A stretch of 64,000 nt of DNA from a virus (lineage: Duplodnaviria > Caudoviricetes). The notes under the pieces were generated by a model that saw only the letters and a program-made list of their open reading frames with translations, ran no database searches and was not told the DNA's origin. Of this stretch, positions 1-62,331 are shown in pieces. Location: positions 34,658-98,657 of the IMG/VR virus record IMGVR_UViG_3300031994_000046. One strand, 5' to 3'. How positions within the stretch are numbered: the first letter of the stretch is position 1; every line of letters begins with the position of its first letter. The translations under genes and the position numbers were made by a program.

Positions 1-2330
1 TCTTCATGATATTCAAACATCAAACTATTCATCAATTTCTTTAAAAGAGTTCTACATAGTTTTGGTGTTGTTGATTTAATAATTTCAATACCTGTACCAG
101 AAACCTTTGGTTCATCGTAATACTTTCCTTTTACATATGCATATCCCTTAAGATATTTCTTTTTCTTAATACAAATCTGTGCATAAGAGATTGTTTCCAA
201 TTCAAATTCATGTACATTTTTACCATGACGTGGATTGTACATTTCTTCACACCACTTATTATTAAGTTTGTCTTGGAACTTCTTACAATAATTCAAAATC
301 CAATCAACTTTCTTTCTATCTGTATCATATTTCTTTTGATATTCAGGTGTCATACACTTAAAGAAATTACCAAATGTAACATAAACTGAATCAGTGTCCG
401 AGTAGCAAGATATGGTCTGTTTTCTAAACCAATCATGTTTACTTTCATCAAGTTCAAATTCAAACTGTTGCCAAATATCTTTTCTATTCCAAATACCTTC
501 ATGGAACCATTCTTCAAGATTATGCCACATTGTCTTTGTAAGATGACGACATTCTCCAGTGATATCTGCTGCAAGTGATGCATTAAAGAAATAGAAGAAC
601 TGATTAGCACATGCTCCATACAACCCATTCATCAAAACTTTATGTGCAAGCTCAAGTAAAGAATATTCATGTCGCAAATCTTCAACTTCAACTCTGAACT
701 TCTTAAGTTCATCTTCAGACATACCAAATAGATCTTCATGAGTCTTATTGAACTTTTCTTTAAGCAAATCTACAATATCTTGATGAAATTCAATATGATT
801 ATTTGAATGATTCAGTATATTATCAATTTCAACAAGAGCTTCAGATTCGATTCTCTGACCTGTGTATTTATATTTGTCACGTAATACTTTAAGGTTAGCT
901 TGTATACGACGGAATGCATAATCTTTATCATTCTTATATACATTACCCATTACGGTAACAAAATAATTTGGATCTTTCCTGAATCTTTCAAGATCTGCTT
1001 CAGTCCATTTAAGAATTGTATATCTTCCGAAACTATCAGGACCAACTCTATTTTCATAGAAATTCTCAAATGATAGATTACAACTTCTTACCTGTGATGG
1101 ATAAAGCGATGCAAAATCAAAACATACTGTAAACTCATATCGACCTGGTACACAACCACAGAATGCTCCTTCATACGGTATCTTTACTCTTTCAATAGAA
1201 TCATAATCCCAAACAATCTTTTGACCTTGATTATAGAATTCTTCAAATACATTTGCTGTACCTAAGGCTACCTGTCCAAATGCAGCCTGTAACGGAACTA
1301 ATGTCACTGATGATACTGCACAAGGTGATTCTAAAGATTTTAGTTTATAGTGAATCAACATTGTGATAAGACTATCGACAGCATTATAGAAATAATACCA
1401 TTCTGGGTCCTTTTCATAAAGATCCTGCAATGATCCTTCATATTTAATCTTATGAGCTTTAACTGCAGCATTACCTACCCAATCCAAAGAATATGATTCA
1501 TAAGGTCTTAATATATAATCATAATCTTTAACAATCTGCATATAATCTAATATGATTGAATGACATGGTCCTGGACATCTTTTCTTTTGTCCACCAACTT
1601 CTTCCCATCCATATTGTTTGATTTCTCCAGTTGGTGAAGATTTACGAATCATATTAAATGCTATATTCTTTCCAAACAAACGAGTTATACGATTAACCAA
1701 ATACAACCAGTCAAACCCATAACTATTCCATCCAGCTAAACACGCAATCTTTGGAATAATAACTGTAAAGAAATGAGTAAGCATATCTTCCTCAGCAGAA
1801 AAATACTGATATAATACTTTTGGTTGTTTTCCAGTTGAATTTATAAAATCTTTTGCAAATTCATTTTCATTAACCCAATCCAAATAACGTTTTCTAAATA
1901 ATGCTATTTGATCTTCATTGAGTTTATGTAGTCCATATACAATACAGCTAAGATCTGGACCTACTAAAGATATAGCTGTAACTTTATGTTCCGCTTTATC
2001 AGGATCAGGGAACTCTCCTTTAACGAATTCAGTTTCAATATCGAATGTATATAATTTTGGAAAGTATTGAGCATGCATTTCAGTATTCAAATCTTTTGGA
2101 AGCTCATACATAAATTCCAAAATATCAAATTCATTTGGTGTATAATTTAAAGTATCTTTAAACACCTTATTACATCTACGGCCATTCCAAGTTTCAAATT
2201 CTCCTTGTGCATCATATTCATATGACTTAATGTGATGTAAATGCTTTGTGAAAAATTTTCTATTTCCTAATTTATCAATATATGAAATATTTATGTAAAT
2301 CTCTTAATGAGATATGGGATCAACTCCCAT
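1..2330 (-). CDS. Family B DNA polymerase (T4 gp43-like), 3' end outside window; start ambiguous
   Basis: Manual translation: ExoI FDIET, ExoII GWNSYGFDWLYL, ExoIII YNAVD, motif A FDFASLYPS, motif B KVLMNGLYG, motif C YSDTDS. Frame open from 2303 to the edge. In-frame ATG at 2330 is followed by TAA at 2304-2306; next canonical starts are GTG 2165 and ATG 2111. Confidence 0.95.
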
Positions 2331-2633
2331 TTTCTGTATTGTGTTTTTCTACAAATAATTAATTCAAATTCTTATATATAAATATAGAATATCTTTAAAA
2401 AATATTTACATTTTATATAAAAACAAAATAGATAGGTCAAATAAATAATTTAACCTATCAAAAATAAAAGTATTAGATTTTATTATCTTTTATTTGTTCT
2501 CTTATGTGAATTCTTTGAATTAAATATTGGAGAACATTTATTCATAAATTGGTTAACTTTAATCGTAGGAAGTGATTCATTCATTCCTAGCTCATACATA
2601 ATAACTTCATTTCCCGTTTCTGGATCTATTGTA

Positions 2634-54185: not shown

Positions 54186-54590
54186 TTAGAAAATCTTATT
54201 CTTACGTGTCTCAATCTTCTTTAGAACTTTATTCTGTTCTTTCTCAGTCATACCTGATTCTGGGAGCCACATCAGAATTGCCTTCTCCATTGCAGTAAAC
54301 TGATTCTGTTGAGTTTTCATTCCCTTGGCATACATAGAATTTTCTGAATGCTCCGCTTTCCAAAATACATTATACCAAGCTTCTTTATTGTTTTTGGGAT
54401 TCTCAATCATTGGGCGAGACATCCACCAATCATATCGCTTCTTCTCACTAAGAAAACCTCTAACAAAAACATCGAGCTCCTTAATGGCTGCATTCATACA
54501 CCAGTCTTTGTATTTGTTTTCACCAGTAAATCTCTTGTAGAAACTTAATGCGAGTTGCTCATAATCATTTGTACAATAAGTAGATGTCAT
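54186..54590 (-). CDS. hypothetical protein
   Basis: 134 aa ORF downstream of promoter motif 54620-54647. Confidence 0.7.
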   Translation of the reverse strand: MTSTYCTNDYEQLALSFYKRFTGENKYKDWCMNAAIKELDVFVRGFLSEKKRYDWWMSRPMIENPKNNKEAWYNVFWKAEHSENSMYAKGMKTQQNQFTAMEKAILMWLPESGMTEKEQNKVLKKIETRKNKIF

Positions 54591-54647
54591 ATAAATTAAA
54601 TTTTAAATATTATATAAATAATATAGTAACTTTTAAATATAATTCAA

Positions 54648-54675
54648 AAAAATGGAGGGTTTATTTACCCTCCAT
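54648..54675 (-). terminator. intrinsic terminator
   Basis: ATGGAGGGT/ACCCTCCAT hairpin + T-run at end of Pth2-like gene. Confidence 0.75.
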
Positions 54676-55011
54676 ATTTAATAGTTTTTCCCTTTTAAGT
54701 TTTTGTTTTATACTACATGGAAAATCGTTTTCATATATTGCAATTGCTGTCATTTTATTGTTTAAATCTGGTTCTATGAAATATGTCCATTTGTAATGAT
54801 TAGGATCAAATCTAGCAAGTCTTTCATACCATTCGTTTATGTCAACTGATAAATAAATAAGGTAATCATTTTTCCAATCCCAGTCAGGATCACCATTTTT
54901 CAGTATCTACCAATTTTCAAGTAACCACTCAGCAACAGCATGACCACCTTGAACTGCAGCATATATAGGATCTAATGTCTTATCTGTTAAAATATATAAT
55001 TTATTTTTCAT
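54661..55011 (-). CDS. Pth2-like peptidyl-tRNA hydrolase with in-frame TAG at codon 35
   Basis: MKNKLYILTDKTLDPIYAAVQGGHAVAEWLLENW*ILKNG...FIEPDLNNKMTAIAI...LLNMEGK (116 codons); TAG at 54907-54909; absent from ORF track. Confidence 0.85.
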
Positions 55012-55369
55012 TTTCTAATAATTTGTTTTCTTTAATAAATTTCAATACATTTTCATATCCTTTTATTCTTTCAAGATATGCATTATCATCATAATAAGGA
55101 TTTTCCCTTTCCTTCTTAATGAAATTATAAATTTTTGCTACATCCAAATTCATTCCTGCATATTCTTCAAAATCATCCAAATATACAAAATCACCATCTA
55201 AATCATCAGGACCATTTCCATTATATCTTATATCATAAATACATATACAAGGATATCTTTCTGGTTCTGATAACCAATTAGATACGTTTTTATATCCTTT
55301 TTGATCACATGTATTTAATTTAATAAATGTTTCAAACGCTTCTTTTGACTTTAATAATATCTTTTCCAT
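55001..55369 (-). CDS. hypothetical protein
   Basis: 122 aa, overlaps Pth2 start. Confidence 0.7.
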   Translation of the reverse strand: MEKILLKSKEAFETFIKLNTCDQKGYKNVSNWLSEPERYPCICIYDIRYNGNGPDDLDGDFVYLDDFEEYAGMNLDVAKIYNFIKKERENPYYDDNAYLERIKGYENVLKFIKENKLLENEK

Positions 55370-55424
55370 ATTTACTTATATATTTATAATTATAAATAGC
55401 AATGTATATGTTAAAATTCAAATA

Positions 55425-55877
55425 TTATTTATTTTTTAATTTAACTTTATTATCAATAATCTCATATTTTCCTTCAGCAAAAGTATTATATACTTCAATG
55501 ACTTTTCTTTTAAAATTTGGAATAGCTTCATATTTCATACATCCTTCACCACCACCATAAGAATACGCATCTTTTCCATACCAAAGCATTTTCCAGCATT
55601 TATATATAATTTCATTATCTAACCAAGTATGTAAAGATAAATTATCAACTAATTCATCATTTTCAAAATCACACCCAATACGATGTTTGAACATATAGTA
55701 AGCTACATATACGTGGTGATGATGTCCATATTCAGCTTGTTTAATATATTGTTTGAATGCTAAATATTGTTCTTTAGTTGTAGCATTTATTGAAAAATCT
55801 TCTTTACTGTAAGTCTGGCAAAAATCATCACTTGAATTAACTAAATCTATTCTAAAATTATTATCTTCTGTATTCAT
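55425..55877 (-). CDS. hypothetical protein
   Basis: 150 aa; HHHHVYVAYY motif. Confidence 0.75.
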   Translation of the reverse strand: MNTEDNNFRIDLVNSSDDFCQTYSKEDFSINATTKEQYLAFKQYIKQAEYGHHHHVYVAYYMFKHRIGCDFENDELVDNLSLHTWLDNEIIYKCWKMLWYGKDAYSYGGGEGCMKYEAIPNFKRKVIEVYNTFAEGKYEIIDNKVKLKNK

Positions 55878-55888
55878 ATTATTATCAT

Positions 55889-56335
55889 TTATATATTTGT
55901 CATTATATAATCTAAATTTTGTTCAGAATATTCAATATTATATTCTTGACATTTTTTCTTGTAGAAATTTTTGGTACTTTCAATTATTACTTCACCATGA
56001 GTTTTACCTTTATTATCTCCATATTCTATTAGTTTATCCCAGTTTTTGATAAACCAATCTTCTGAATCATTATCTTTGTAATAATCTTTGAAAGACTGCA
56101 CATCTCTATTAGCCCAGTATTTTAAACCATGTCTAATCCAACGATAATAATATAAAATATTTGTGATTTTATACGCCCTAATTTTAATTTCATCTACTAT
56201 ATCTTGTAAACTCTTTTCTTTAGGACGATTTGTAAGTTTACGAGTTTTCTTTTGCTCTATTTGTTCATTTGCGAGTTGAGCTATCTCAGATTTCATAGCA
56301 TTAACTAATGCATTTCTAAATTCTTTGTTTTCCAT
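55889..56335 (-). CDS. hypothetical protein
   Basis: 148 aa, first gene after leader/attenuator. Confidence 0.75.
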   Translation of the reverse strand: MENKEFRNALVNAMKSEIAQLANEQIEQKKTRKLTNRPKEKSLQDIVDEIKIRAYKITNILYYYRWIRHGLKYWANRDVQSFKDYYKDNDSEDWFIKNWDKLIEYGDNKGKTHGEVIIESTKNFYKKKCQEYNIEYSEQNLDYIMTNI

Positions 56336-56349
56336 AATACTAAAACATA

Positions 56350-56488
56350 TTTATTTATAAAAATTTCTGTGTTCAAGAAAAACGTTCTGTTCAAATATTG
56401 TTGAACACATAAAAAATATTGAACAGATTTTTATAAACAAATCTATTTACGGAAAACCTAAATCAAAAATCTACCAAAACTGTTTCAT
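56350..56488 (-). promoter_or_regulatory. amber-containing leader peptide (56447-56488, MKQFW*IFDLGFP) plus alternative hairpins
   Basis: ATG AAA CAG TTT TGG TAG ATT TTT GAT TTA GGT TTT CCG TAA after A-rich initiation region; mutually exclusive stems downstream. Confidence 0.65.
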
Positions 56489-56602
56489 AATTTTAATTTA
56501 ATTTAATTTGTTAGTTATATAAAATGGTTTATCCTCTAACCAAAAAGGAGTTGTATTGTGGAACAACTTTAAAACATCCATGTTCTTTTTACAGAAACAT
56601 CG

Positions 56603-56673
56603 TGCCCCATGTAGGACTCAAACCCACCTCAGCTGGTTTAGAAGCAGCGGCACAATCTCTATACCAATGGGAC
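56603..56673 (-). tRNA. amber suppressor tRNA (anticodon CUA)
   Basis: 7-bp acceptor, D and T arms fold; anticodon arm GCTGC-TTCTAAA-CCAGC; the Arg-TCT register cannot pair. Confidence 0.8.
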
Positions 56674-56698
56674 AAATATATGTTGGTACAATTATATG

Positions 56699-56770
56699 CA
56701 GGCGGTGAAGGATTCGAACCCTCATGAACGGTTTTGGAGACCGCAATACTAACCATTGTATGAACCACCT
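56699..56770 (-). tRNA. tRNA-Trp(CCA)
   Basis: GCGGT-CTCCAAA-ACCGT. Confidence 0.9.
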
Positions 56771-56774
56771 AAAT

Positions 56775-57007
56775 TAGATGAGTAAATTTGCGAGCTACGG
56801 ACTGAAGAAACCACGGCTAGAAAACGCGGATTGCATTATCTCTTTGAGATTTTACTCTTCTGTTGCGTTGCGCCTTATGAGCTCTCACGATACTCAACTC
56901 CTTTCACTGGGCGAGGACTATTTCTTAGATCCAACCAACATAATAAGAAGAAGTCGACATTTGCTTATTACTTACCCCAGTTCTACTCAGAGGCCTGTAC
57001 TCATCTA
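56775..57007 (-). ncRNA. uncharacterised structured RNA
   Basis: GC-elevated spacer closed by 10 bp terminal inverted repeat TAGATGAGTA/TACTCATCTA. Confidence 0.5.
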
Positions 57008-62188: not shown

Positions 62189-62271
62189 ATACACAATAAA
62201 TTGTATTAAACTTAATAATAATTTGCGTTTAATTTTGATTTAACGTGCATGCTTCTAATTGGTTAAACTGC

Positions 62272-62331
62272 TTAATACCAACTTCTCTCAGGAAACATAC
62301 ACAACTAACGTTTTCGTTTAAACTGTTTCAT
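62272..62331 (-). promoter_or_regulatory. second amber-containing leader mini-ORF (MKQFKRKR*LCMFPERSWY)
   Basis: Same ATGAAACAGTTT start as the 56488 leader; TAG at 62305-62307; A-rich initiation region. Confidence 0.55.

What the first reader, a model, noticed from the sequence alone, without database searches (positions are those of the whole stretch)
54661..56770. Amber-gated circuit: suppressor tRNA, TAG leader peptide and TAG-interrupted peptidyl-tRNA hydrolase in a standard-code region
Seen, in minus-strand order: tRNA-Trp; tRNA with CUA anticodon (56603-56673); leader MKQFW*IFDLGFP (56447-56488); hairpins; three ORFs; a Pth2-like gene with one in-frame TAG at codon 35. Pth2-like motifs lie on both sides of that TAG (AVQGGHA before, EPDL..TAIA after). 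Both ambers share the context TGG-TAG-AT(A/T) (W*I). No long gene in the window, including portal and terminase, has an internal TAG, and TAG is an ordinary stop at 2634, 5919, 9540 and 50818. Known: Lak and some crAss-like phages recode TAG across many genes; Pth2 recycles peptidyl-tRNA. Inference: here amber readthrough works as a targeted switch that makes Pth only when suppression beats RF1. This could be a sensor of termination status, or an intermediate on the way into or out of code 15. Caveat: a separate promoter motif at 55393-55421 also precedes Pth2.
Basis: partly seen in the sequence, partly recalled or inferred. Interest (0 to 1): 0.92.

Follow-up and report, generated by a model that had tools for sequence, protein, structure and literature searches.

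The report
Stop-codon-gated tRNA-hydrolase operon in megaphage
A giant gut phage that otherwise uses the normal genetic code carries its own UAG-reading tRNA, followed by a tiny leader gene and a tRNA-hydrolase-like gene that each keep one conserved UAG; the operon therefore looks switched on only while that tRNA overrides the stop, and relatives build the same device with UAA or UGA and matching tRNAs.

Summary
The window comes from a Lak-related megaphage (sheep-gut metagenome) that uses the standard code. Portal, terminase and all long genes lack internal TAG, while the Lak-B1 portal has 10.

At the end of a 26-tRNA array sits a tRNA(CUA) supported by covariation. It is followed by:
- a 14-codon leader with UAG after Trp;
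- a structured RNA whose outer helix covers the start region of the next gene;
- three unknown ORFs;
- a PTH2-fold gene with UAG at codon 35;
- a terminator.

All 14 contigs of this clade (13 IMG/VR contigs plus the window) keep the leader. The 13 whose DNA I examined also keep the tRNA, and ten lineages keep the Pth2 UAG. That gene is the only real gene with a conserved in-frame TAG in a 98%-complete relative.

The strongest evidence is that true Lak phages have the same layout built on tRNA(UUA) and a Trp-UAA leader. A more distant locus pairs tRNA(UCA) with a UGA leader. Of 60 Pth2-like loci, 56 carry a suppressor tRNA on the same strand.

I infer a translational switch that senses suppression. 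Nothing is experimental. I found no paper describing it. This scan has noted the same kind of module before on other DNA.

The parts
56698..56770 (-). tRNA-Trp(CCA), the next-to-last gene of the tRNA array. Trp is the codon before both ambers.
   Evidence: ARAGORN. Rfam tRNA model, 53.1 bits. The order Gln-Trp-Sup is kept in relatives.
56603..56673 (-). Suppressor tRNA with anticodon CUA, the last gene of the array. Pair 31-39 is never formed, so the anticodon loop is effectively 9 nt.
   Evidence: Rfam, 33.7 bits against a gathering score of 29. Alignment of 11 orthologues has an invariant CUA. Eight compensatory pairs, 94% of cells paired, 0 of 500 shuffles as good.
56447..56488 (-). Leader mini-ORF of 14 codons plus a stop: Met-Lys-Gln-Phe-Trp-UAG-Ile-Phe-Asp-Leu-Gly-Phe-Pro-UAA. 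The UAG is at 56471-56473.
   Evidence: Sequence. Same length and frame in all 14 contigs of the clade (13 IMG/VR contigs plus the window), with invariant Trp-UAG-Ile and Gly-Phe-Pro-UAA. The Lak version carries UAA next to tRNA(UUA).
56349..56442 (-). Structured RNA between the leader and the first ORF. Outer helix H0: 56442-56427 pairs with 56364-56349. Inside it are two crossing helices: H13 (56428-56414 with 56400-56385) and H24 (56409-56401 with 56376-56368).
   Evidence: H24 is the RNAalifold consensus, with 3 covarying pairs. H13 has p<=0.02 in 11 of 13 sequences, with several unrelated arm sequences. H0 has p<0.05 in 8 of 13. H0 is also present in Lak phages.
55889..56335 (-). ORF148, the first gene after the leader. 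Helical, function unknown.
   Evidence: Conserved in relatives. AF2 pLDDT 90, no PDB fold match. No Pfam, PHROG or Atlas lead.
55425..55877 (-). ORF150, function unknown.
   Evidence: ORF list. No family match.
55001..55369 (-). ORF122, function unknown. Overlaps the start of the Pth2-like gene by 11 nt.
   Evidence: ORF list. No family match.
54661..55011 (-). PTH2-fold gene of 116 codons with an in-frame UAG at codon 35 (54907-54909). The UAG lies at the start of a variable, low-confidence loop.
   Evidence: PHROG 3668 match spans residues 1-106. AF2 pLDDT 84.7. PTH2 structures at Z 8.4-9.5, next unrelated hit 2.9. TAG kept in ten lineages. dN/dS is about 0.1 for the N-terminal part and 0.15-0.5 for the C-terminal part.
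54652..54675 (-). Intrinsic-terminator-like hairpin plus a T-run at the end of the Pth2-like gene. It marks the end of the unit.
   Evidence: The only terminator-like site in 54400-56900. Also present in L001.

Best explanation
This is the regulated tail of the tRNA operon of a standard-code, Lak-related megaphage. I read it as a translational switch that senses the phage's own amber-suppressor tRNA.

Proposed order of events:
1. The tRNA(CUA) is made as the last gene of the tRNA array.
2. Ribosomes start on the 14-codon leader just downstream. After Trp they meet UAG.
3. If release factor 1 wins, translation ends there. The outer helix H0 stays closed and hides the A/U-rich start region of ORF148.
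4. If the suppressor tRNA wins, the ribosome runs eight codons further, to the UAA that follows Gly-Phe-Pro. That UAA lies 4-5 nt before the 5' arm of H0, so the ribosome's footprint, probably prolonged by slow termination after Pro, opens H0 and the downstream genes can be translated.
5. The last gene, a PTH2-fold protein, needs a second readthrough at codon 35. Its output should therefore rise steeply with suppression efficiency.

Shown here: the parts, their order, their conservation, the matching of stop codon to anticodon, selection on both halves of the gene, and the predicted helices.

Inferred: expression and charging of the tRNA, competition with RF1, stalling, opening of H0, and the enzyme's activity.

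Suppressor tRNAs and this protein family travel together in almost every locus found. The protein's most likely job is therefore to handle a by-product of suppression, such as peptidyl-tRNA dropped at slowly decoded stops. That last step is the weakest.
For: Standard code:
- No internal TAG in long genes of the window or of the 376-kb, 98%-complete relative G001.
- Portal without stops in the window, G001 and G002, against 10 TAG in Lak-B1.
- TAG ends 4-6% of predicted genes, and one such TAG aligns with TAA in a relative.
- No release factor or GlnRS gene in G001 or G002, whereas Lak-B1 has a release factor.

Targeted ambers:
- The Pth2-like gene is the only real gene with a conserved in-frame TAG.
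- The TAG is invariant in ten lineages down to 56% protein identity, although the flanking residues vary.
- Synonymous divergence is 0.57, and 24 of 33 amino-acid-invariant columns vary synonymously.
- pN is 0.10 upstream of the TAG and 0.27 downstream.

Leader:
- Present once in each of 13 IMG/VR contigs. The 12 whose flanks I examined have tRNA(CUA) 130-190 nt upstream. No indels and no extra in-frame stops.
- Lak-A1, Lak-A2, Lak-B1 and Lak-C1, whose loci I read, and 6 IMG/VR Lak contigs have tRNA(UUA), then a Trp-UAA leader, one ORF, then the Pth2-like gene. A blastn search finds the same stretch in all 15 GenBank Lak records.
- L022 pairs tRNA(UCA) with a UGA leader, and no mismatched stop type was found.

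Structure:
- H24 covaries.
- H13 and H0 are better than shuffles, with different arm sequences in different lineages.
- In Lak the 5' arm of H0 starts at or inside the end of the readthrough part of the leader, and its 3' arm ends 2-9 nt before the next ATG.

Other:
- tRNA cloverleaf supported by covariation.
- Linkage: 52 of 60 Pth2-like loci have an ARAGORN suppressor tRNA on the same strand within 2.2 kb, and 4 more have one by Rfam or inspection.
- PTH2 fold.
- Terminator after the gene.
- Contigs from RNA libraries span the TAG site and the tRNA-leader junction. This is a weak hint only.
Against: - Nothing is experimental. tRNA expression, charging and the inserted amino acid are unknown, and the tRNA resembles no other tRNA of the window (70% identity at most).
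- The closest relative, L001 (93% identity), has TAA instead of TAG in the Pth2-like gene, and no UUA tRNA was found in the part of its array that is held. The full-length protein is therefore dispensable there, at least for a time.
- L012 and L014 keep the tRNA and leader but have TAT in the gene, so the second gate is optional.
- Invariance of the TAG alone is not decisive, because 9 of 33 conserved columns also show no synonymous change.
- The helices are A/U-rich. Per-sequence significance is modest, and H0 is not significant in 5 of 13 sequences.
- The invariant nucleotides of the leader, including the rare CCG codon, could reflect an RNA or DNA signal rather than a peptide.
- No Pfam PTH2 match, so enzymatic activity is assumed from fold.
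- A working suppressor would also extend the 4-6% of phage genes that end in TAG.
Confidence: 0.6

Rival explanations
1. Evolutionary residue or first step of code 15. The clade has a suppressor tRNA because it is related to TAG-recoded Lak phages. The TAG in the Pth2-like gene is simply a tolerated Gln-like codon with no regulatory meaning, and the leader resemblance is incidental.
For: The clade is related to Lak phages. TAG is about 3 times rarer than TGA as a stop, as reported for standard-code relatives of recoded phages (bioRxiv 10.1101/2021.08.26.457843). The deepest Lak branch is unrecoded (PMC8346664). The TAG lies in a variable loop where any residue may do. L012 and L014 replaced it with TAT.
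Against: A neutral codon would not be the only in-frame TAG of a 376-kb genome. It would not stay TAG in ten lineages at synonymous divergence 0.57 while its neighbours change. This reading does not explain the leader, whose stop matches the adjacent anticodon in three codon/anticodon combinations. It also does not explain why heavily recoded Lak phages keep the same module on UAA/UUA.
Confidence: 0.15
2. The conserved 'leader' is not translated. It is an RNA or DNA signal, such as a tRNA-trailer processing site, a promoter or a protein-binding site, that happens to contain TAG. Only the Pth2-like gene depends on the suppressor.
For: Several leader codons are invariant at the nucleotide level, including the rare CCG. 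Variable positions show no clear third-base periodicity. The element lies in the trailer of a tRNA operon. Bacteroidetes-type promoter elements cannot be scored with the tools available.
Against: An ATG, constant length, no frameshifting indels and no extra in-frame stops in 14 contigs, while the flanks are full of indels. Synonymous changes occur at codons 2, 3, 8 and 10. The internal stop switches to TAA or TGA exactly where the neighbouring tRNA reads that codon. The end of the readthrough frame always abuts or enters the 5' arm of H0.
Confidence: 0.12
3. The main job of the suppressor tRNA lies elsewhere, for example disturbing host termination, helping or exploiting co-infecting TAG-recoded phages, or evading a tRNA-targeting defence. 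The two ambers only report on it, or are side effects.
For: Only two TAG 'clients' were found in a near-complete genome, which is few for maintaining a tRNA. The same rumen and gut habitats hold TAG-recoded Lak phages (PMC8346664). The earlier literature proposes host disruption.
Against: This is compatible with, rather than opposed to, a sensing module. No direct evidence for any external target was found here.
Confidence: 0.1
4. Broken gene or artefact: a private nonsense mutation or an assembly error in the Pth2-like gene.
For: The closest relative L001 has TAA at the same codon. ARAGORN does not call the window's CUA tRNA.
Against: The same TAG occurs in ten independent assemblies. A zero-difference contig in a public run spans it. 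Both halves are under purifying selection. A single PTH2 fold spans the stop.
Confidence: 0.02

Closest known systems
prfB (release factor 2) autoregulation through an in-frame UGA at codon 26 (established knowledge, from memory)
   Same: An early in-frame stop codon in a gene of the translation-termination sphere makes output depend on how efficiently that stop is read.
   Different: prfB escapes by +1 frameshifting and senses its own product. Here escape would be by a dedicated suppressor tRNA, the sensed factor is that tRNA against RF1, and a separate leader carries a second copy of the gate.
Leader-peptide translational attenuation (ermC, cat, cmlA; the trp and his attenuators sense charged tRNA through codons in a leader) (established knowledge, from memory)
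   Same: A short upstream ORF, a helix that hides the start region of the next gene, and a ribosome position on the leader that decides whether the helix opens.
   Different: The signal would be decoding of a stop codon by a phage suppressor tRNA, not an antibiotic or scarcity of a sense-codon tRNA. No stalling has been shown.
RAPP/RGPP-type arrest peptides (ApdA, ApdP, SecM RAGP; PMC10951233, PMC12992588)
   Same: Relatives' leaders end in Arg-Gly-Phe-Pro, Arg-Gly-Pro or Arg-Gly-Pro-Pro shortly after the gated stop, close to the arrest motif.
   Different: The window's own leader ends Leu-Gly-Phe-Pro followed by a stop. It has no Arg and no Pro-Pro, and a release factor rather than Pro-tRNA would be in the A site.
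Stop-codon recoding in Lak, crAss-like and other gut phages (code 15; bioRxiv 10.1101/2021.08.26.457843; PMC6784885; PMC8346664)
   Same: A phage-encoded tRNA(CUA) in a phage of a standard-code Bacteroidota host, with TAG depleted as a stop. The idea that suppression times gene expression is shared.
   Different: There, tens of TAG codons per structural gene. Here, none in portal, terminase or any long gene, and one gene plus one leader carry the only conserved ambers. The Lak papers report an unexplained universal TAA-suppressor tRNA, and the module described here gives it a target.
Phage lambda bar minigenes and host Pth (established knowledge, from memory)
   Same: A phage mini-ORF and peptidyl-tRNA hydrolase are functionally tied through drop-off of short peptidyl-tRNAs.
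   Different: bar minigenes are toxic in Pth-deficient hosts and are not known to gate an operon. No suppressor tRNA is involved.

Membership tests
PTH2 peptidyl-tRNA hydrolase (Pfam PF01981) | Sequence match to the family model | tested here: not met
   No Pfam hit for the protein at E<=0.1 or for any of 33 alignment members at E<=1. A profile search against PDB sequences found nothing. The only match is PHROG 3668 'hydrolase', E 1.3e-11.
PTH2 peptidyl-tRNA hydrolase (Pfam PF01981) | PTH2 alpha/beta fold over the whole protein | tested here: met
   AF2 model with pLDDT 84.7. Foldseek top hits are all PTH2. VIA-align gives Z 8.4-9.5 to 1q7s, 1xty, 1rlk, 2zv3, 1wn2 and 3erj over residues 2-112, with the next unrelated hit at Z 2.9.
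PTH2 peptidyl-tRNA hydrolase (Pfam PF01981) | Catalytic residues and hydrolysis of peptidyl-tRNA | not testable with these tools
   The family keeps Gln-Gly-Gly-His-Ala and Glu-Pro-Asp...Thr motifs. From memory these resemble PTH2 motifs. No residue-level superposition or assay was done.
Code-15 (TAG-recoded) phage | Many in-frame TAG codons in structural and late genes | tested here: not met
   None in portal, terminase or any ORF of 100 aa or more. Lak-B1 shows 5-39 per gene.
Code-15 (TAG-recoded) phage | Phage tRNA with CUA anticodon | tested here: met
Code-15 (TAG-recoded) phage | TAG not used as a terminator; phage RF2 often present | tested here: not met
   TAG ends 4 of 65, 24 of 510 and 12 of 270 predicted genes, and one aligns with TAA in a relative. 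No PCRF match above the cut-off in G001 or G002.
Leader-peptide translational attenuator | Short conserved ORF directly upstream of the regulated gene | tested here: met
   A 14-codon ORF with constant length and frame in 14 contigs.
Leader-peptide translational attenuator | RNA helix that occludes the downstream start region and can be opened by a ribosome on the leader | tested here: inconclusive
   H0 is predicted in every sequence, with differing arm sequences. It is significant against shuffles in 8 of 13 and is present in Lak. It is A/U-rich and there is no probing data.
Leader-peptide translational attenuator | Ribosome pausing or stalling on the leader | not testable with these tools
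   Only the Pro-stop ending and the RGP-like motifs in relatives suggest it.
RAPP/RGPP arrest peptide | C-terminal Arg-Ala/Gly-Pro-Pro core | tested here: not met
   The window leader ends Leu-Gly-Phe-Pro-stop. Relatives have Arg-Gly-Phe-Pro, Arg-Gly-Pro and, in one case, Arg-Gly-Pro-Pro.
Functional suppressor tRNA | Cloverleaf kept by compensatory change, invariant anticodon | tested here: met
   Eight compensatory pairs, 94% of cells paired, 0 of 500 shuffles as good, CUA invariant.
Functional suppressor tRNA | Transcribed, processed and aminoacylated | not testable with these tools
   The only hint is a contig from an RNA library that spans the tRNA 3' half and the leader. DNA carry-over is not excluded.

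The most novel reading that the evidence does not exclude
Phage suppressor tRNAs come with a dedicated, self-contained sensor. A mini-ORF carrying the cognate stop codon unlocks, by readthrough, a small operon that always includes a PTH2-fold protein. On this reading the module is the natural client of the 'orphan' suppressor tRNAs of standard-code phages and of the unexplained universal UAA suppressor of Lak phages. It may also be the seed from which genome-wide stop-codon recoding evolved, because the tRNA, a check on its activity and a clean-up enzyme would already be in place before any structural gene acquires the codon.
Probability: 0.4. Interest if true: 0.9.

Novelty: new variant of a known kind. 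Interest (0 to 1): 0.8.

Why it matters
It gives a concrete, testable target for suppressor tRNAs in phages that do not recode their genomes. It also gives one for the TAA-reading tRNA found in all Lak megaphages, which the Lak papers left unexplained.

It points to a natural gene switch whose input is the decoding of a stop codon. That kind of part is of interest for synthetic genetic-code work.

It ties a widespread but uncharacterised PTH2-fold phage protein to suppression.

It offers a plausible stepping stone for how phages of standard-code hosts begin to reassign stop codons.

Tried and rejected
At least one such protein (P0029) is identical to the L006 translation with TAG read as Q, so those Q residues are not independent evidence for Gln.
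- No whole genome is held for the window. I used the relatives G001 and G002 instead.

Searches that gave nothing:
- Pfam for all six local proteins.
- PDB sequence searches.
- The ESM Atlas, and Foldseek on a confident ORF148 model.
- No detectable similarity between ORF148 and the Lak ORF128.

Other checks:
- Sigma-70 promoter scanning was no better than shuffles.
- Neither the H13 nor the H24 hairpin is consistently followed by a U-run across relatives. I therefore dropped a transcription-terminator reading in favour of start-site occlusion.
- In loci where the tRNA follows the Pth2-like gene, no conserved mini-ORF lies after the tRNA. Where one is present, it lies upstream.
- The amino acid inserted could not be inferred. 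Sense-codon relatives have Tyr (TAT), Asn or His at the site, and the tRNA resembles no other tRNA of the window.
- The Pth2 tree is too poorly resolved to order gains and losses of the TAG.
- Public runs are held only as contigs, so neither depth nor transcript ends could be read. 282 difference rows were not shown, so minor variants at 54907-54909 cannot be excluded.
- A second mini-ORF starting with the same 12 nt (62320-62331) has TAG in the window and G001 but TAA in G002. I do not count it as part of the module.
Full report
**What is there**

All features lie on the minus strand. ARAGORN finds 26 tRNA genes between 56698 and 63895, ending with tRNA-Trp(CCA) at 56698-56770. It does not call the CUA tRNA. 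Rfam's tRNA model does call it, at 56603-56673, with 33.7 bits against a gathering score of 29 and an anticodon loop reading CUA.

The features downstream are, in order:
- the mini-ORF at 56488-56447, with TAG at 56473-56471;
- ORFs of 148, 150 and 122 codons;
- a 116-codon frame at 55011-54661, interrupted only by TAG at 54907-54909;
- the single terminator-like hairpin of the region, at 54675-54652.

**What kind of genome**

- The window has 29% G+C.
- It encodes a portal (PHROG 213, E 2.5e-75) and a large terminase.
- Its only nucleotide matches among deposited phages are Prevotella Lak megaphages.
- A sheep-gut metagenome run holds 84% of the sampled words of the region.

No ORF of 100 codons or more has a genuine internal TAG apart from the gene in question. 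The portal has no stops in the window or in two relatives (85-90% identical), whereas the Lak-B1 portal has 10 TAG. In a Lak-B1 stretch, genes carry 5-39 in-frame TAGs.

I fetched the whole 376-kb relative G001 (98% complete by CheckV) and the 236-kb relative G002.
- Neither has long genes with internal TAG.
- TAG ends 4-6% of predicted genes, and one TAG stop of the window aligns with TAA in G002.
- G001 and G002 lack a release-factor or GlnRS gene, while Lak-B1 has a release factor.

This is therefore a standard-code relative of Lak. That fits the report that the deepest branch of the Lak tree is not recoded (PMC8346664).

**The interrupted gene**

- Read with TAG as a residue, the protein matches PHROG 3668 'hydrolase' across residues 1-106.
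- It folds with confidence (pLDDT 84.7).
- Six different PTH2 structures match at Z 8.4-9.5 over residues 2-112, and the next unrelated hit has Z 2.9.
- There is no Pfam PTH2 match for it or for any relative. I therefore call it PTH2-fold, not a proven peptidyl-tRNA hydrolase.

At the DNA level the TAG sits at the homologous codon in ten lineages: the window, L002, L004, L005, L006, L008, L009, L011, L013 and L097. Protein identity among these goes down to 56%, and the flanking residues vary (W/G before; I/T/L/V after). L001 has TAA, L012 and L014 have TAT, and L010 has AAT.

Among the ten TAG-bearing lineages:
- synonymous divergence averages 0.57 in both halves;
- non-synonymous divergence is 0.10 upstream of the TAG and 0.27 downstream;
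- 24 of 33 amino-acid-invariant columns vary synonymously.

Both halves are therefore translated and constrained, and the stop must be read through. The codon lies at the start of a clade-specific loop of low model confidence, where the identity of the residue should matter little.

I compared all stop-to-stop frames of the window, G001 and G002 and removed shadows of real genes. After that, this is the only real gene with a conserved in-frame TAG.

**The tRNA**

Orthologues are present in all 13 contigs examined. The CUA anticodon is invariant, 8 of 21 stem pairs show compensatory change, 94% of cells are paired and 0 of 500 shuffles do as well. Pair 31-39 is never formed.

**The leader**

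The mini-ORF is present, in one copy, in all 14 contigs of this clade (13 IMG/VR contigs plus the window). In the 13 contigs examined it lies 130-190 nt after the tRNA. This includes L012 and L014, which have lost the TAG in the hydrolase gene.
- Length and frame are constant, and Trp-UAG-Ile and Gly-Phe-Pro-UAA are invariant.
- Three codons in the middle vary freely without creating stops.
- The surrounding spacer is full of indels.

**The decisive comparison**

- In Lak-B1 a tRNA with a UUA anticodon sits directly upstream of one ORF plus the Pth2-like gene. It is followed 29 nt later by a homologous mini-ORF in which Trp is followed by UAA.
- Lak-A1, A2 and C1 and six further IMG/VR Lak contigs show the same arrangement, and a blastn search finds the same stretch in all 15 GenBank Lak records.
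- In more distant loci, mini-ORFs upstream of the operon carry TAG where the tRNA is CUA. In L022 the mini-ORF carries TGA and the tRNA is UCA. No mismatched combination was found.

The internal stop of the leader thus follows the anticodon of the neighbouring suppressor. I cannot explain this unless the leader is translated and read by that tRNA.

**RNA structure**

- RNAalifold recovers one helix (H24) with three covarying pairs.
- Duplex energies against shuffles support a second helix (H13) that crosses H24. It has p<=0.02 in 11 of 13 sequences, with at least four unrelated arm sequences.
- An outer helix (H0) has p<0.05 in 8 of 13 sequences, again with different arm sequences.
- In the window, the 5' arm of H0 starts 4-5 nt after the leader's UAA, and its 3' arm ends 13 nt before the ORF148 start.
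- In Lak-B1 the 5' arm begins right after the leader stop. In Lak-A and Lak-C the longer readthrough frame runs into it. In all of them the 3' arm ends 2-9 nt before the next ATG.

This is the geometry of erm- or cat-type translational attenuation. The helices are A/U-rich, so the evidence is suggestive rather than firm.

**A wider linkage**

- Of the 60 loci found through the Pth2-like protein, 52 have an ARAGORN-called suppressor tRNA on the same strand within 2.2 kb (49 CUA, 3 UCA, 1 UUA).
- Four more have one by Rfam or by inspection.
- Two are cut by contig ends.
- Only two (L056, L059) show none, and L059's downstream flank is short because the contig ends there.

**Reading**

I take the region to be a switch that senses suppression. 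Readthrough of the leader UAG opens the start region of the operon, and the last gene needs a second readthrough. The role of the PTH2-fold protein as a clean-up partner of suppression is inferred from linkage and fold only.

Points against are these:
- TAA in L001, with no ochre tRNA in the part of its array that is held;
- TAT in L012 and L014;
- the modest statistics for H0;
- the total lack of expression data beyond contigs in RNA libraries.

**Novelty**

Papers on recoded phages describe suppressor tRNAs, including in standard-code relatives, and a universal unexplained TAA suppressor in Lak. None of those read mentions the hydrolase or a leader. A full-text search for Pth2, suppressor tRNA and bacteriophage together returned nothing.

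Earlier notes of this scan describe the same kind of module on other DNA. They also gave me the lead to RAPP/RGPP arrest peptides (PMC10951233, PMC12992588). The window's own leader does not meet that motif.

Noticed in passing
window 62190-62331 (-): A second mini-ORF starts with the same 12 nt as the leader and has TAG at codon 9, just upstream of three tRNA-Lys genes. The stretch is conserved in G001 and G002, but the codon is TAA in G002 and G001 has a further TAG. It is not a consistent amber leader.
   Followed up: partly
L001 3100-3102 (IMG/VR contig of 39 kb, 93% identical Pth2-like gene): The closest relative has TAA instead of TAG at codon 35, with an otherwise intact frame. No UUA tRNA was found among the 27 tRNAs of the held part of its array. 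It is either a recent knockout or evidence that the full-length protein is dispensable.
   Followed up: partly
window 56603-56673 and orthologues (alignment A2): Pair 31-39 of the suppressor tRNA is a mismatch in all 8 distinct sequences (C-C, C-A or A-C). This gives a conserved 4-bp anticodon stem and a 9-nt loop.
   Followed up: partly
L010 24-2348 and 3360-3433: A contig with a 774-codon ORF holding 24 in-frame TAGs, so clearly TAG-recoded, carries a tRNA with a UCA (UGA-reading) anticodon directly after its Pth2-like gene.
   Followed up: no
L018 about 2538 and L033 about 2542: Mini-ORFs upstream of the Pth2-like gene contain two Trp-TAG pairs, followed by Ile-Arg-Gly-Pro-Asp. This would be a double-gated version of the leader.
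   Followed up: no
window 1-2633: No ORF of 100 codons or more, yet the stretch is conserved with G002 (about 142.3-143.7 kb) in several frames. It may be non-coding RNA or a set of very small genes.
   Followed up: no
G001 308606-308776 (L110): A weak, sub-threshold match to the release-factor PCRF domain (19.4 bits against a cut-off of 24) inside a 209-codon frame of the standard-code relative.
   Followed up: no
L061 18593-29398 (Lak-B1): In the TAG-recoded Lak-B1, the block holding tRNA(UUA), the leader and the Pth2-like gene is almost free of in-frame TAG, while neighbouring genes have up to 39.
   Followed up: partly
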